From a virus: 10,208 nt of DNA. The notes under the pieces are model-generated. The model searched no databases, was not told where the DNA came from, and was given only the letters and a program-made list of their open reading frames with translations. Each line of letters opens with the position of its first letter. The first letter of the stretch is position 1. This document shows positions 1,580 to 8,949 of the stretch, piece by piece. The stretch lies in UHGV virus genome UHGV-0247914, one strand, 5' to 3'. The translations under genes and the position numbers were made by a program.

Positions 1580-1594
1580 TTACCCCTGAGGTAA
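1580..1594. promoter_or_regulatory. Operator-like palindrome TTACC-CCTGA-GGTAA
   Basis: Perfect inverted-repeat half-sites TTACC/GGTAA with a 5-bp spacer. Overlaps the RBS region of the gene at 1232..1576. Confidence 0.5.
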
Positions 1595-1635
1595 TTAAAA
1601 ACCACATAAGACACGAAATCAATAGATCTTAGAAC

Positions 1636-1663
1636 ATTTTATTACCTAGCAGGTAATTATCAA
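1636..1663 (-). promoter_or_regulatory. Putative sigma70 promoter for the accessory cassette, with the operator in its spacer
   Basis: Minus strand: -35 TTGATA (complement of 1658-1663), 16-bp spacer, -10 TAAAAT (complement of 1636-1641). The spacer is the palindrome at 1642-1656. Confidence 0.4.
1642..1656. promoter_or_regulatory. Operator-like palindrome TTACC-TAGCA-GGTAA
   Basis: Perfect half-sites; with flanks aTTACCtagcaGGTAAt. Lies between the putative -35 and -10. Confidence 0.5.
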
Positions 1664-3282: not shown

Positions 3283-3483
3283 TCAGCTTGAGTGTTGTGG
3301 GGAGGAATTAATCATGATCTGCTTAATCTCTGCCCTGATGCGACGGTTTGACTCCATGGTGCACTCAACACAGTGTCCGTTGTAAACCCAGCGTTCACTG
3401 TCATGTCCGTGCTTACATGGTTTTCCGGTGTAGTAGCGTTTAAGTCCGCGCTTTGCGGCATCAATACGTGTAATGATTTCCAT
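3283..3483 (-). CDS. Small Cys/His-rich protein (possible zinc-binding), in the position cII occupies in lambda
   Basis: ORF track gives 3283..3546. The hydrophobic N-terminal extension looks unlikely, so the internal ATG at 3481-3483 (MEIITRIDAAKRG...) is preferred. Contains C-K-H-G-H ... H-C-V-E-C. Stop is 18 bp before the initiator gene start. Confidence 0.45.
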   Translation of the reverse strand: MEIITRIDAAKRGLKRYYTGKPCKHGHDSERWVYNGHCVECTMESNRRIRAEIKQIMINSSPQHSS

Positions 3484-3564
3484 GGTAAGCCCTGTTATTA
3501 GTATTGGGATTACGGTTATTTTGTGCTGACACAAAAAAAAGATCAACCAGATTTGGTTTTTTAT

Positions 3565-3579
3565 TACCTTTGAGGTACG
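3565..3579. promoter_or_regulatory. Operator-like palindrome TTACC-TTTGA-GGTAc (one mismatch)
   Basis: Same TTACC-N5-GGTAA architecture, just downstream in the minus-strand transcription direction of the terminator at 3580-3612. Confidence 0.4.
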
Positions 3580-3633: not shown

Positions 3634-3864
3634 TCATGAGTAGAAGAAGTATGCCAGTTCCGCTTTTGAGCGCAGCCATTGTCTTGTTTTACAGGCTTTA
3701 AAAAGCCCATTCATCAATACCTTACCTGGCATTTTGCGCTTACCTGTTAAGTGAGTCTGGATATAGTGACTCGTCGTTCCGGCTTCCTGTGCGAAGGCTT
3801 CACGCTCATCCGGAGTAAGTGCAAGCCAGTGCTTTTTGAAATCGAAATGTCCGTTATCGCTCAT
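3634..3864 (-). CDS. Cro-like HTH regulator (YdaS-like), first gene of the minus-strand early operon
   Basis: 76-aa ORF with an HTH-like segment (LTPDEREAFAQEAGTTSHYIQTHLTGKRKMP). Divergent from the repressor across the operator region. Confidence 0.7.
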   Translation of the reverse strand: MSDNGHFDFKKHWLALTPDEREAFAQEAGTTSHYIQTHLTGKRKMPGKVLMNGLFKACKTRQWLRSKAELAYFFYS

Positions 3865-3889: not shown

Positions 3890-3918
3890 ATAATAAATAT
3901 TCACCCATAAGGTAACAA
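3890..3918 (-). promoter_or_regulatory. Putative PR-like promoter for the cro-like operon
   Basis: Minus strand: -35 TTGTTA (complement of 3913-3918), 17-bp spacer, -10 TATTAT (complement of 3890-3895). The palindrome at 3901-3915 lies in the spacer. Confidence 0.4.
3901..3915. promoter_or_regulatory. Operator-like palindrome TcACC-CATAA-GGTAA (one mismatch)
   Basis: First of three sites in the divergent intergenic region, phased like an OR1-OR2-OR3 cluster. Confidence 0.45.
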
Positions 3919-3931
3919 AAATCAAGGATAG

Positions 3932-3946
3932 TTACCTATGGGGTGC
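3932..3946. promoter_or_regulatory. Operator-like palindrome TTACC-TATGG-GGTgc (two mismatches)
   Basis: Middle site of the divergent cluster and the weakest match. Confidence 0.35.
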
Positions 3947-3948
3947 AT

Positions 3949-3963
3949 TTACCTGTTGGGTAA
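3949..3963. promoter_or_regulatory. Operator-like palindrome TTACC-TGTTG-GGTAA (perfect)
   Basis: Site of the cluster nearest the repressor gene. Confidence 0.5.
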
Positions 3964-4018
3964 TATTGCTTTAAATTGAATCATCTACTGATTCATATAT
4001 GAGGCGATTTTCCAGAAA

Positions 4019-4603
4019 ATGAAAAGTATCCAGGACGTCCGCAGGCAAAATCTCAACGACTTGATCGACCGTGAATTCAATGGTGTTCAGACGCGGATGG
4101 CAGAAAAACTTGGAACTCAGGCAAATCTGGTAAACCGCTGGGCTCTTGGCAAGAAGGTTATCGGCGACCAGGTTGCGCGAAAAATTGAAGCTGCCGCCAA
4201 TAAACCCCGTAACTGGCTTGATATCGATCGCTCGCTTTCTCAGGAAGGTTTTCAGCCTGTCGGCCCAAGCGACATTGGTCAGCTGGCAGCTCACAACCTG
4301 GAACGCTGGATGAGTGAAAGCCGCGACCTTTCAACTCAGGGAAAACTTCACCGCGCATCCGGCGTCGCCCAGGTGACAATCAGTCGCCTGTTAAACAATG
4401 AGGTCAGCGTTTCCATTTCCACCCTGGAGAATGTTGCATCCGCATTCGGGCGTCACGGATATGAACTACTGATTCACCCGCACGACCCTGCGACTATCAA
4501 CTATGACCGCTCGCGCTACGCATTGTTACCCGAAACCGAGAAAGCAAAGATCGAAAGTTACATTGAATTTGTCATCAACCAGAACGAAAAAAACAAACAA
4601 TAA
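4019..4603 (+). CDS. Repressor-like regulator with two HTH domains (CI position)
   Basis: 194 aa. HTH 1 is about residues 20-70 (TRMAEKLGTQANLVNRWALGKKVIGDQVARKIE); HTH 2 is about residues 110-150 (HRASGVAQVTISRLLNNEVSVSISTLENVASAFG). No S24 peptidase (LexA-like) motifs were seen. First ATG has no good SD within 5-10 nt. Confidence 0.7.
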   Translation: MKSIQDVRRQNLNDLIDREFNGVQTRMAEKLGTQANLVNRWALGKKVIGDQVARKIEAAANKPRNWLDIDRSLSQEGFQPVGPSDIGQLAAHNLERWMSESRDLSTQGKLHRASGVAQVTISRLLNNEVSVSISTLENVASAFGRHGYELLIHPHDPATINYDRSRYALLPETEKAKIESYIEFVINQNEKNKQ

Positions 4604-4624
4604 AATCATACTCTTCAGTAAGTA

Positions 4625-4650
4625 AGCCGCCTTCTGGCGGCTTTTTTATT
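4625..4650 (+). terminator. Rho-independent terminator after the repressor gene
   Basis: AGCCGCC-TTCT-GGCGGCT (7-bp stem) followed by TTTTTTATT. Confidence 0.8.
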
Positions 4651-4660
4651 GCCTATACTA

Positions 4661-4675
4661 TTACCTAATGGGTAA
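4661..4675. promoter_or_regulatory. Operator-like palindrome TTACC-TAATG-GGTAA (perfect)
   Basis: With flanks aTTACCtaatgGGTAAt; 20 bp upstream of the -35 of the PL-like promoter. Confidence 0.5.
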
Positions 4676-4694: not shown

Positions 4695-4723
4695 TTGACA
4701 TCAAACCAAATACGCATAATTAT
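4695..4723 (+). promoter_or_regulatory. Putative PL-like promoter for the recombination/integration operon
   Basis: Consensus -35 TTGACA at 4695-4700, 17-bp spacer, -10-like AATTAT at 4718-4723. The palindrome at 4723-4737 abuts the -10 and covers the start region. Confidence 0.5.
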
Positions 4724-4737
4724 TACCTCAACGGTAA
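4723..4737. promoter_or_regulatory. Operator-like palindrome TTACC-TCAAC-GGTAA (perfect)
   Basis: Overlaps the -10/+1 region of the PL-like promoter. Confidence 0.5.
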
Positions 4738-7350: not shown

Positions 7351-7650
7351 GTGAGAAAGTTAAGCCGACTTGAAAAATATCACATGAACAAGGTTTCAAT
7401 GCGCCGTCCTTCAAAGGTTATCGCCGTTACTCCTGCGGCGATAGAGATCGAAAAACGCGCGATTGAAAGAGAGAAAAAAGGGCAGTTCCGCATTGCCGCT
7501 CACCTTTGGCTTCAGTGTATGGATGTTGCTTCTGGTGATGTTGAACGTGCAAGGATCGCGGTTCGCAGGGACCAATGTATCACAAAAGGTAACGGCCTTC
7601 GCCGTGGCGACTATAGCGGCATAGGATGTTGTGGGGTGGTTTATGACTAA
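7351..7650 (+). CDS. Small regulator-like protein, tentatively PerC/ANR-like
   Basis: GTG start at 7351 with AGAGGG 9 nt upstream; an alternative ATG is at 7384. GQFRIAAHLWLQCMDVASGDVERARIAVRRDQC resembles the helical hairpin of PerC/ANR-type proteins, from memory only. Confidence 0.45.
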   Translation: MRKLSRLEKYHMNKVSMRRPSKVIAVTPAAIEIEKRAIEREKKGQFRIAAHLWLQCMDVASGDVERARIAVRRDQCITKGNGLRRGDYSGIGCCGVVYD

Positions 7651-8293
7651 GAAATACACACTAATCTATGCAGATCCACCCTGGGTATACCGGGACAAAG
7701 CCGCAGATGGTAATCGCGGTGCCGGTTTTAAATATCCGGTTATGAGTGTGCTGGATATCTGCCGCCTTCCTGTGTGGGATTTGGCCGATGAAAACTGTCT
7801 GTTGGCCATGTGGTGGGTGCCAACACAACCACTCGAAGCACTAAAAGTTGTTGAAGCCTGGGGATTCCGTCTGATGACGATGAAGGGCTTCACGTGGATA
7901 AAATGTGGTAGTCGACAACCAGATAAACTGGTTATGGGTATGGTACACATGACTCGCGCCAATAGTGAAGATTGCCTGTTTGCGGTAAAGGGAAAACTAC
8001 CTACGCGCATTAATGCAGGGATCGTTCAGTCATTTACCGCACCGCGGCTTGAGCATTCAAGAAAGCCAGATATCGTTCGTGAAAAACTTGTGCAATTATT
8101 AGGCGATGTTTCTCGCATTGAACTGTTCGCCCGCCAGACGTCTCATGGCTTCGATGTTTGGGGTAATCAGTGCGAAGACCCGGCAGTGCAACTACACCCT
8201 GGATACGCGTTGGATATCGGCGGATTAACAAATGCATTCAGCAATGCTCCGCTGTCACCAACAGACAACCAGGGGCGGGAGCGTGCAGCATGA
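7643..8293 (+). CDS. MT-A70-family N6-adenine methyltransferase
   Basis: DPPW motif in [14 protein letters not shown] near the N-terminus. Preferred start is ATG 7643 (GGGGTGG upstream); the track's GTG 7631 adds four residues. Stop overlaps the phosphatase start as ATGA. Confidence 0.8.
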
Positions 8294-8949
8294 ACCTATA
8301 TCAACGCATCAATGGCGCTGACTGGTGCAATATCTTCGTCGTCGGCGATCTGCATGGGTGCTACACGCTGCTGATGAACGAACTCGACAAAGTTTCATTC
8401 GACCCGGCGCGCGATTTGCTTATTTCCGTTGGTGACCTTGTTGACCGCGGCGCTGAAAACGTCGAATGCCTGGATTTGATTACTATGCCGTGGTTCCGAG
8501 CTGTTCGTGGCAACCATGAGCAGATGATGCTGGATGCACTGGTCAACGGCGGAAGTTTCGGACATTGGATGTCAAACGGCGGTGGATGGTGGCACCAACT
8601 TGATTCTGAGCAGGATGTGCAACTCAAATACCTTCTGCCAAAGGTTACCAACCTCCCGATGATTATCGAACTGGTTACCGGCAATAAGAAGGTCGTCATC
8701 TGCCACGCAGACTACCCGCACAACGAATACGCATTCGATAAGCCAGTACCGGAAGAAATGGTGATATGGAATCGTGAGCGGGTTAGCGACGCGCAGGACG
8801 GTATTGTCTCGGAGATAACCGGTGCCGATTTGTTCATCTTCGGTCATACGCCAGCACATCACCCACTGGTGTATGCAAACCAAATGTACATCGACACCGG
8901 CGCAGTGTTCTGCGGAAATCTGACGCTTACCAAAGTCCAGGAAGGATAG
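8290..8949 (+). CDS. Ser/Thr protein phosphatase, lambda phosphatase (PPP family) homolog
   Basis: GDLHGC, GDLVDRG and GNHE metallophosphoesterase motifs. Near-colinear with lambda phosphatase as I recall it, with 18 residues before GDLHGC in both. The track's 8170 start is an in-frame upstream extension. RBS GGGAG. Confidence 0.9.

What the first reader, a model, noticed from the sequence alone, without database searches (positions are those of the whole stretch)
4019..4603. The repressor is a tandem-HTH protein with no LexA-like cleavage domain
The gene in the CI position has two HTH domains and no Ala-Gly/Ser...Lys peptidase signature, so RecA-mediated autocleavage is unlikely. Induction may instead depend on an antirepressor or another signal. 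The start codon lacks a normally spaced SD, which could mean a leaderless or weakly translated mRNA, as for lambda cI from PRM.
Basis: inference. Interest (0 to 1): 0.5.

Follow-up and report, generated by a model that had tools for sequence, protein, structure and literature searches.

The report
Known antirepressor-controlled phage repressor (phiV10/SPC32H type)

Summary
ORF 4019-4603(+) is real. Its 194-aa product is 100% identical to phiV10 gp40, and the same protein is the tested "ORF21 repressor" of phage ZX5. It aligns over its full length with the crystallised SPC32H repressor Rep (PDB 5D50, E=4e-42, 42% identity).

It has two helix-turn-helix (HTH) folds and no S24 peptidase domain. 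There is no Ala-Gly or Cys-Gly dipeptide, and none of 86 homologues carries S24. In SPC32H Rep that module tetramerises the protein and docks the antirepressor Ant, and the second HTH is a dimerisation domain, not a DNA binder.

The partner gene lies outside the window. phiV10, SPC32H and the closest E. coli prophage each carry an 85-86-aa Ant (E=3e-46 to 5D50 chain E). In each, a LexA box sits 21 nt upstream of its ATG.

Inside the window, TTACC-N5-GGTAA operators (7 found, 0.14 expected) sit on the divergent and downstream promoters.

The odd Shine-Dalgarno (SD) spacing is real: GAGG lies 14 nt from the ATG. No promoter is placed for a leaderless mRNA; the conserved -10-like hexamer ends 41 nt upstream.

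Verdict: observation confirmed, main interpretation supported, already known, low interest.

The parts
4019..4603 (+). rep: 194-aa lysogeny repressor gene (stop codon included)
   Evidence: ORF. 100% identical to phiV10 gp40 and to ZX5 ORF21 (H56). Full-length match to SPC32H Rep 5D50_A, E=4e-42.
4019..4225 (+). aa 1-69: N-terminal Cro/CI-type HTH DNA-binding domain (HTH helices aa 24-31 and 35-42, nt 4088-4144)
   Evidence: Pfam YdaS_toxin/DUF739 HTH at aa 20-61. Model helices. The recognition-helix motif NLVNRW is nearly invariant and shared with SPC32H Rep. 54% identity to the SPC32H N-terminal domain.
4271..4474 (+). aa 85-152: second XRE/HTH_3-fold domain, equivalent to the middle dimerisation domain (MDD) of SPC32H Rep
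   Evidence: Pfam HTH_3 at aa 106-147, E=1.2e-9. Matches 5D4Z (Rep 92-198), E=4e-20. Foldseek TM 0.67-0.72 normalised to 5D4Z chains. Domain naming from PMC9986798.
4475..4600 (+). aa 153-194: C-terminal module, equivalent to the CAD/TetDloop of SPC32H Rep (tetramerisation and Ant docking)
   Evidence: 47% identity to the SPC32H C-terminus, higher than the middle domain. Y162, L170 and F184 are invariant. The monomer model gives low-confidence aa 157-162 followed by a long helix aa 172-193. Function taken from PMC9986798.
4001..4004 (+). GAGG, the only SD-like element upstream of rep, 14 nt from the ATG
   Evidence: Sequence. Duplex -5.6 kcal/mol with a 13-nt gap. Relatives also lack a well-spaced SD.
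3949..3977 (+). Candidate rep promoter: TTACCT (-35, inside an operator), 17 nt, TAAATT (-10)
   Evidence: Top-scoring plus-strand candidate in the intergenic region. The block GGTAAtatt..ttTAAATT is conserved in six phages. Prediction only.
3949..3963 (.). Operator, perfect TTACC-N5-GGTAA, nearest rep
   Evidence: Conserved position in six phages.
3932..3946 (.). Operator-like site with 2 mismatches (TTACCTATGGGGTGC), 17 bp from the previous one
   Evidence: The same 17-bp spacing is seen in SPC32H.
3901..3915 (.). Operator with 1 mismatch, overlapping the predicted promoter of the cro-like gene
   Evidence: Minus-strand promoter TTGTTA-17-TATTAT at 3918->3890.
3634..3864 (-). Cro-like 76-aa gene, divergent from rep
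   Evidence: phrog_35 'transcriptional repressor', E=5.6e-13. Equals phiV10p41.
4624..4653 (+). Intrinsic terminator ending the rep transcript
   Evidence: Annotated in phiV10.
4661..4675 (.). Operator upstream of the -35 of the PL-like promoter
   Evidence: Paired 62 bp from the next site, as in all relatives.
4695..4723 (+). PL-like early promoter TTGACA-17-AATTAT, driving the recombination-gene operon
   Evidence: 10 of 12 matches. TTGACA is conserved in six phages.
4723..4737 (.). Operator overlapping the -10/+1 of the PL-like promoter
3564..3578 (.). Operator-like site with 1 mismatch, just after the terminator of the cro-like gene
   Evidence: Conserved in phiV10; SPC32H has only a 2-mismatch counterpart.
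1580..1656 (.). Second pair of perfect operators (1580-1594 and 1642-1656), 62 bp apart, bracketing a promoter for the DUF1064 gene operon (minus strand)
   Evidence: The same pair is present in phiV10, SPC32H and the E. coli prophage.

Best explanation
The ORF encodes the master lysogeny repressor (Rep) of an epsilon15/phiV10-like (Uetakevirus) prophage of E. coli.

How it represses. The N-terminal HTH reads TTACC-N5-GGTAA operators. These lie on the promoter of the divergent cro-like gene, on the downstream PL-like promoter and on a third early promoter. The second HTH-fold domain dimerises the protein and the last ~40 residues tetramerise it, so a tetramer presents two pairs of DNA-binding domains.

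How it is switched off. The protein has no S24 peptidase domain and is not expected to be cleaved with the help of RecA. A small antirepressor, Ant (85 aa), is encoded about 29 kb away in the closest sequenced E. coli prophage, between the tail genes and the tailspike gene, and is kept off by host LexA. DNA damage removes LexA and Ant is made. Ant then binds the C-terminal module of Rep, splits the tetramer, captures the DNA-binding domains and releases the operators.

Shown here: identity, homology, domain content, absence of S24, operator enrichment and placement, and Ant plus its LexA box in phages that carry this same Rep.

From the literature: the SPC32H mechanism, repression by this exact protein in ZX5, and induction of phiV10-type prophages by a bacteriocin the authors class as DNA-damaging.

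Inferred: that Ant acts on this 42%-identical Rep, and that the window's own prophage carries ant.
For: - Identity: 100% identical to phiV10 gp40. The immunity region is present at >=95% identity in most of the 561 of 5426 complete E. coli genomes that carry it.
- Homology: full-length match to SPC32H Rep, 5D50_A E=4e-42 and 5D4Z E=4e-20. Foldseek's top hits are 5D50 and 5D4Z.
- No cleavage domain: no S24 domain in the protein or in 86 homologues, and no AG/CG dipeptide.
- Ant: phiV10p24 matches 5D50_E 'Anti-repressor protein' at E=2.9e-46.
- LexA box: CTGT-N8-ACAG with an AT-rich spacer lies 21 nt upstream of ant in phiV10, SPC32H and E. coli NZ_OZ040331. The identical box is also present next to the epsilon15 ant homologue. 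It is the only AT-rich box in each genome.
- Co-occurrence: ant plus its box is in 529 of 5426 E. coli genomes, against 561 for rep.
- Operators: 7 in the window against 0.14 expected, and none of 200 shuffles reached 7. They sit on the predicted promoters.
- The same sites are annotated 'protein_bind repressor' in the epsilon15 record.
- Overexpression of the identical ZX5 protein abolished free phage and cut holin and endolysin mRNA by 99.97-99.99%.
- phiV10-species prophages were induced (one Uetakevirus 47-fold) by microcin Mcc1229, which the authors class as DNA-damaging.
- The SPC32H mechanism is described.
Against: - Rep here is only 42% identical to the crystallised SPC32H Rep, and 32% in the middle domain.
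- No experiment on the small Ant of the phiV10 lineage was found.
- The only 'anti-repressor' tested in ZX5 was a different, Bro-N protein.
- ant and any LexA box are absent from the 10-kb window, so their presence in the source genome is inferred from relatives.
- The primary SPC32H papers could not be read, so the mechanism rests on PDB entries and secondary descriptions.
Confidence: 0.82

Rival explanations
1. The physiological inducer is the Bro-N domain protein encoded next to ant (phiV10p23, ZX5 ORF4) rather than, or in addition to, the small SPC32H-type Ant.
For: In ZX5, overexpressing ORF4 (Bro-N) lowered the prophage count from 10^9 to 10^6 and cut rep mRNA by 75%. phiV10p23 carries a partial COG3617 antirepressor domain.
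Against: No LexA box precedes the Bro-N gene, and a terminator separates it from ant. SPC32H has no bro gene at that position yet is described as induced through Ant. The ZX5 test was overexpression only, with no binding assay.
Confidence: 0.12
2. Rep is nevertheless inactivated by RecA-stimulated self-cleavage at a non-canonical site.
For: None found. The only opening is that a disordered linker (aa 60-82; pLDDT below 50 at aa 71-83) exists between the domains.
Against: No S24 domain by Pfam, by fold search or in any homologue. No AG/CG dipeptide. SPC32H-type prophages are described as induced through a LexA-controlled antirepressor, with repressor cleavage not the main outcome; that SPC32H Rep itself is not cleaved is recalled from the Kim & Ryu 2013 abstract, which I could not open.
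Confidence: 0.02
3. rep is expressed from a leaderless mRNA, as lambda cI is from PRM.
For: No SD at 5-10 nt from the ATG in this phage or its relatives.
Against: No -10-like hexamer ends within ~7 nt of the ATG. The candidate -10 hexamers closest to the ATG end 34-41 nt upstream, and the conserved TAAATT ends 41 nt upstream. A GAGG is present in that predicted leader.
Confidence: 0.1
4. The protein is not the immunity repressor but another XRE-type regulator or antitoxin; one record labels it 'antidote protein VapI'.
For: Generic HTH_3 hits. The phage BP9 annotation reads 'plasmid maintenance system antidote protein VapI'. Foldseek gives weak hits to HigA and GraA antitoxins.
Against: No adjacent toxin gene. 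The gene is monocistronic, with its own terminator. It sits in the CI position, with operators on both flanking early promoters. The ZX5 overexpression result argues for a repressor, as does full-length homology to a proven repressor.
Confidence: 0.02

Closest known systems
Escherichia phage phiV10 gp40 (YP_512295.1), identical to the vB_EcoP_ZX5 ORF21 repressor
   Same: 100% identical protein in the same genomic context. The phiV10 record already notes 'two helix-turn-helix motifs'. ZX5 ORF21 was shown to shut down lytic transcription when overexpressed.
   Different: Nothing in the protein. The window's prophage differs only in neighbouring accessory genes, for example a Ser/Thr phosphatase next to int in place of the DUF1382 gene.
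Salmonella phage SPC32H Rep and its antirepressor Ant (PDB 5D50, 5D4Z; Kim & Ryu 2013; Kim et al. 2016)
   Same: Full-length homologue with the same length and the same DBD-MDD-CAD layout. The gene order is the same, the operator half-sites (TTACC) are the same, and the operator and promoter geometry is the same. The Ant of phages carrying this Rep is ~85% identical to SPC32H Ant and has the same LexA box.
   Different: Only 42% identity overall. The inner operator positions differ: SPC32H immunity-region sites are mostly TTACCA..TGGTAA, while here they are TTACCY..RGGTAA. Immunity specificity may therefore differ. Rep-Ant binding has not been tested for this lineage.
Salmonella phage epsilon15 gp38 repressor
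   Same: Same family and position. The GenBank record cites HHpred 5d50_A and annotates genome-wide 16-17-bp 'repressor' binding sites that coincide with the motif found here.
   Different: 42% identity. The epsilon15 sites are predictions.
Gifsy-1/Gifsy-3 repressors with LexA-controlled antirepressors, and coliphage 186 CI/Tum
   Same: Same logic: a non-cleavable repressor inactivated by a small SOS-induced antirepressor (review PMC7380047).
   Different: No detectable sequence relationship was found here. From my recollection of the Kim & Ryu 2013 abstract, SPC32H-type Ant is structurally distinct from those of sipho- and myoviruses.
Lambda CI, P22 C2 and LexA (S24 peptidase repressors)
   Same: Same genomic position, divergent from cro. 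Three operators in OR. An N-terminal HTH DNA-binding domain.
   Different: No S24 domain and no Ala-Gly site. Oligomerisation uses an HTH-fold domain plus a beta/alpha tetramerisation module. Inactivation is by protein binding, not by cleavage.
Rco of Bacillus plasmid pLS20 with Rap (TetDloop regulators)
   Same: N-terminal HTH plus a C-terminal p53-like tetramerisation module, relieved by a protein partner.
   Different: Rco lacks the middle dimerisation domain. The resemblance is at the level of fold and architecture only.

Membership tests
SPC32H-type Rep (Uetakevirus antirepressor-controlled repressors) | Full-length sequence homology to SPC32H Rep | tested here: met
   phmmer 5D50_A E=4e-42 over aa 1-190. 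tblastn 41.8% identity over 98% of the length.
SPC32H-type Rep (Uetakevirus antirepressor-controlled repressors) | Three modules: N-terminal HTH DNA-binding domain, middle dimerisation domain, C-terminal tetramerisation/Ant-binding module | tested here: met
   Pfam, model and Foldseek to 5D50/5D4Z show the modules. Their names and roles come from PMC9986798. Oligomeric state was not tested.
SPC32H-type Rep (Uetakevirus antirepressor-controlled repressors) | Cognate small Ant gene in the same phage, under a LexA box | tested here: inconclusive
   Met in phiV10 and E. coli NZ_OZ040331, which carry this Rep or a one-residue variant. ant is not in the window, and the source genome beyond the window is not available.
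SPC32H-type Rep (Uetakevirus antirepressor-controlled repressors) | Palindromic operators at the early promoters | tested here: met
   TTACC-N5-GGTAA: 7 sites against 0.14 expected. Same layout as SPC32H. Binding itself was not tested.
SPC32H-type Rep (Uetakevirus antirepressor-controlled repressors) | Rep is not cleaved on SOS induction and is inactivated by Ant binding | not testable with these tools
   Needs an immunoblot and binding assays.
LexA/CI-type autocleavable repressors (Peptidase S24) | C-terminal S24 peptidase domain with a Ser/Lys dyad | tested here: not met
   No PF00717 hit at E<=1. None in 86 homologues. No LexA or CI C-terminal domain among the Foldseek hits.
LexA/CI-type autocleavable repressors (Peptidase S24) | Ala-Gly or Cys-Gly cleavage site in the linker | tested here: not met
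   No AG or CG dipeptide anywhere in the 194 aa.
XRE/Cro-CI HTH superfamily | HTH_3-type helix-turn-helix fold | tested here: met
   PF01381 at 38.5 bits against a cut-off of 23, two stretches. Structural hits to SinR, NHTF, Stl and DdrO.
Leaderless cI-type transcript (lambda PRM) | Promoter -10 hexamer ending ~7 nt upstream of the start codon, so that the transcript starts at the ATG | tested here: not met
   No such hexamer. The best conserved -10 candidate ends 41 nt upstream. The true 5' end was not mapped.

The most novel reading that the evidence does not exclude
Rep may act as a genome-wide silencer whose tetramer bridges pairs of operators placed exactly 62 bp apart around each early promoter. 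Such pairs occur at 4661/4723 and 1580/1642 here, and the spacing is the same in every relative examined.

Separately, Ant is ~85% identical between E. coli and Salmonella phages whose Reps have diverged to 42%. It could therefore serve as a shared trans-acting inducer, letting different epsilon15-like prophages co-induce while they remain hetero-immune.

I could not read the primary SPC32H papers, so either point may already be described there.
Probability: 0.3. Interest if true: 0.35.

Novelty: already known. Interest (0 to 1): 0.15.

Why it matters
The gene shows that about one in ten complete E. coli genomes carries a prophage whose lysis-lysogeny switch is wired through a LexA-controlled antirepressor rather than through repressor self-cleavage. 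This is useful for predicting which prophages respond to DNA-damaging drugs and bacteriocins.

It also exposes an annotation gap. RefSeq labels the repressor only 'helix-turn-helix domain-containing protein' and the antirepressor 'hypothetical protein'.

It does not open a new question. The mechanism, the structure and even this exact protein are already in the literature.

Tried and rejected
- Primary papers could not be opened: Kim et al. 2016 (DOI and PMC4983836), Kim & Ryu 2013 (PMC3807360) and Kropinski 2007 (PMC2698709). One literature query was malformed. Mechanistic statements therefore rest on PDB entries and on citing papers.
- A LexA box inside the window: none perfect, and the three one-mismatch matches equal chance (3.27 expected).
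- Ant or Bro-N homologues inside the window by tblastn: nothing significant.
- Rfam families in the window: none.
- A promoter that would give a leaderless rep mRNA: none.
- A 7-codon upstream ORF (3999-4022) whose stop overlaps the rep ATG. It is present here and in phage BUCT554 but absent in Tyrion, SPC32H and epsilon15, and it has no SD of its own. I treated it as probably fortuitous.
- Rejected the 'VapI antidote' label given in one phage record.

Full report
**What is at the coordinates.** ORF 4019-4603(+) starts with ATG and encodes 194 aa. The window is the early region of an epsilon15/phiV10-like (genus Uetakevirus) prophage of E. coli.
- The 1.2 kb around the ORF matches phiV10, TL-2011b, ZX5 and other phages at 96-99% identity.
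- It matches 561 of 5426 complete E. coli genomes.
- The protein is 100% identical to phiV10 gp40, YP_512295.1, and to the annotated repressor of ZX5 and many other phages.
- In the closest full-length match (E. coli NZ_OZ040331) the prophage sits next to guaA. This is the integration site reported for ZX5.

**Check of the observation.** All three observations hold.
- Two HTH folds. Pfam HTH_3 matches two stretches, the best at aa 106-147 (E=1.2e-9). A Cro/YdaS-type HTH matches aa 21-61. An AlphaFold model (pLDDT 76) shows two helical bundles, aa 4-59 and 83-151, joined by a disordered linker.
- No cleavage apparatus. There is no S24 hit at E<=1 and no Ala-Gly or Cys-Gly dipeptide. None of 86 database homologues, almost all ~194 aa apart from a few truncated entries, carries S24. 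Foldseek returns only SPC32H Rep and XRE-type regulators such as SinR, NHTF, Stl and DdrO.
- Poor SD. The only SD-like element, GAGG at 4001-4004, is 14 nt from the ATG. Relatives likewise lack a well-spaced SD.
- The start codon is secure because MKSI is invariant in 23 homologues.

- The protein aligns end to end with the crystallised repressor of Salmonella phage SPC32H: 5D50_A E=4e-42, and 5D4Z (Rep 92-198) E=4e-20.
- According to PMC9986798, SPC32H Rep has three modules: an N-terminal DNA-binding domain, a middle dimerisation domain, and a C-terminal module (CAD/TetDloop). The last one both tetramerises the protein and binds the antirepressor.
- So the second HTH is an oligomerisation module rather than a second DNA reader. 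Residues ~153-194 form a third functional module.
- Identity to SPC32H Rep by region is 54% (N-terminal domain), 33% (linker), 32% (middle domain) and 47% (C-terminal module). The overall figure is 42%.

**The induction partner.** It is not in the window. There is no perfect LexA box there, and the three one-mismatch matches equal the chance expectation. There is also no Ant or Bro-N homologue. The partner is present in genomes that carry this Rep or a one-residue variant.
- phiV10p24 (85 aa) matches 5D50 chain E, 'Anti-repressor protein', at E=2.9e-46.
- The same ORF is present in NZ_OZ040331 (L002 36817-37074).
- In phiV10, NZ_OZ040331 and SPC32H, a CTGT-N8-ACAG box with an AT-rich spacer lies 21 nt upstream of the ant ATG. 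The identical box lies next to the epsilon15 ant homologue. It is the only AT-rich box in each genome.
- ant plus its box occurs in 529 of 5426 E. coli genomes, close to the 561 that have rep.

**What the literature says.**
- SPC32H Rep binds DNA as a tetramer, and the Ant tetramer binds two Rep dimers and breaks the tetramer.
- Ant expression follows LexA cleavage.
- Overexpression of the identical ZX5 protein eliminated free phage and cut holin and endolysin mRNA by 99.97-99.99%. The 'anti-repressor' tested in that paper was the neighbouring Bro-N protein, not the small Ant.
- A 2026 preprint reports phiV10-species prophages induced by a microcin the authors class as DNA-damaging; another Uetakevirus prophage rose 47-fold.

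**Operators and promoters inside the window.**
- The inverted repeat TTACC-N5-GGTAA occurs 7 times at one mismatch or fewer, against 0.14 expected. None of 200 shuffles reached 7.
- Three sites lie between rep and the cro-like gene: 3901-3915, 3932-3946 (2 mismatches) and 3949-3963. Their centre-to-centre spacings are 31 and 17 bp, as in SPC32H.
- Site 3901-3915 overlaps the predicted promoter of the cro-like gene, 3918->3890 on the minus strand.
- Downstream of the rep terminator (4624-4643), two perfect sites at 4661 and 4723 lie exactly 62 bp apart. They bracket a TTGACA-17-AATTAT promoter.
- A second 62-bp pair at 1580 and 1642 brackets a promoter in front of the DUF1064 gene.
- A single site at 3564 follows the terminator of the cro-like gene.
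- The same layout recurs in phiV10, the E. coli prophage, SPC32H, epsilon15, BUCT554 and a Klebsiella phage; Tyrion shares the rep/cro intergenic layout and the PL sites, but I did not check its PL spacing, which looks shorter.
- The epsilon15 GenBank record already marks most of these sites 'protein_bind: repressor', but not those between rep and the cro-like gene.
- The recognition-helix motif NLVNRW is nearly invariant in the family and shared with SPC32H Rep. This fits the shared TTACC half-site.

**Translation and transcription of rep.**
- The best plus-strand promoter candidate is TTACCT (3949-3954), 17 nt, TAAATT (3972-3977). The surrounding block is conserved in six phages.
- That promoter predicts a leader of about 35 nt, and its -35 lies inside the perfect operator. 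Negative autoregulation is therefore likely (inference).
- No -10-like hexamer ends near the ATG, so a lambda-PRM-style leaderless mRNA is not supported.
- Weak translation is plausible. The cro-like gene has an equally poor SD.

**Comparison and verdict.**
- In function and in family membership this is an SPC32H-type, antirepressor-controlled repressor.
- It is not a member of the S24 autocleavable family, because both defining features were tested and not met.
- It works like the Gifsy and 186/Tum systems in logic but is not related to them in sequence.
- The exact protein, its two HTH motifs, its repressor activity, the homologous crystal structure with Ant and the operator motif are all on public record. 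The finding is correct but already known.

**What remains inferred.**
- That the window's own prophage carries ant.
- That the ~85%-conserved Ant acts on this 42%-identical Rep.
- That the operator pairs 62 bp apart are bridged by one tetramer.

Noticed in passing
window 1580-1594, 1642-1656, 3564-3578, 4661-4675, 4723-4737; L001 (phiV10), L003 (SPC32H): The operator motif TTACC-N5-GGTAA is not confined to the immunity region. It recurs in most intergenic regions that precede operons across the whole phage genome: upstream of terS, the gene just upstream of the portal gene, ant/tailspike, the lysis genes and int. At two early promoters it occurs as pairs exactly 62 bp apart. The epsilon15 record annotates several of these sites as repressor sites.
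   Followed up: partly
L001 20877-20891 and 20497-20511; L003 20013-20027: Operator-like sites flank the ant gene itself, one in the ant/tailspike intergenic region and one just downstream of ant. Rep may therefore also act on ant or on tailspike transcription.
   Followed up: no
window 3999-4022: A 7-codon upstream ORF (ATGAGGCGATTTTCCAGAAAATGA) ends in a TGA that overlaps the rep ATG. It is preserved in Enterobacter phage BUCT554 but not in Tyrion, SPC32H or epsilon15. It has no SD of its own and is probably fortuitous.
   Followed up: partly
L002 36817-37074 and 7611-8195; hits H85-H89: RefSeq annotates the SPC32H-type Ant homologue in E. coli as 'hypothetical protein' and Rep as 'helix-turn-helix domain-containing protein'. 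One phage record (BP9) calls Rep 'antidote protein VapI'. The ZX5 paper assigned the name 'anti-repressor' to the Bro-N protein instead.
   Followed up: partly
window 8290-8949 (+): A Ser/Thr protein phosphatase gene lies between the methyltransferase gene and int, where phiV10 has a small DUF1382 gene. It is an accessory-gene swap within an otherwise phiV10-like early region.
   Followed up: no
window 7351-7650 (+): The PerC-family activator ORF is intact here but is annotated as frameshifted in the closest E. coli prophage (L002 4563-4815).
   Followed up: no
window 3283-3546 (-): A small conserved gene (phrog_1081, unknown function) follows the terminator of the cro-like gene and an operator-like site. 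Its product has a Cys/His-rich stretch (CKHGH...HCVEC) and weak similarity to an endonuclease VII phrog.
   Followed up: no
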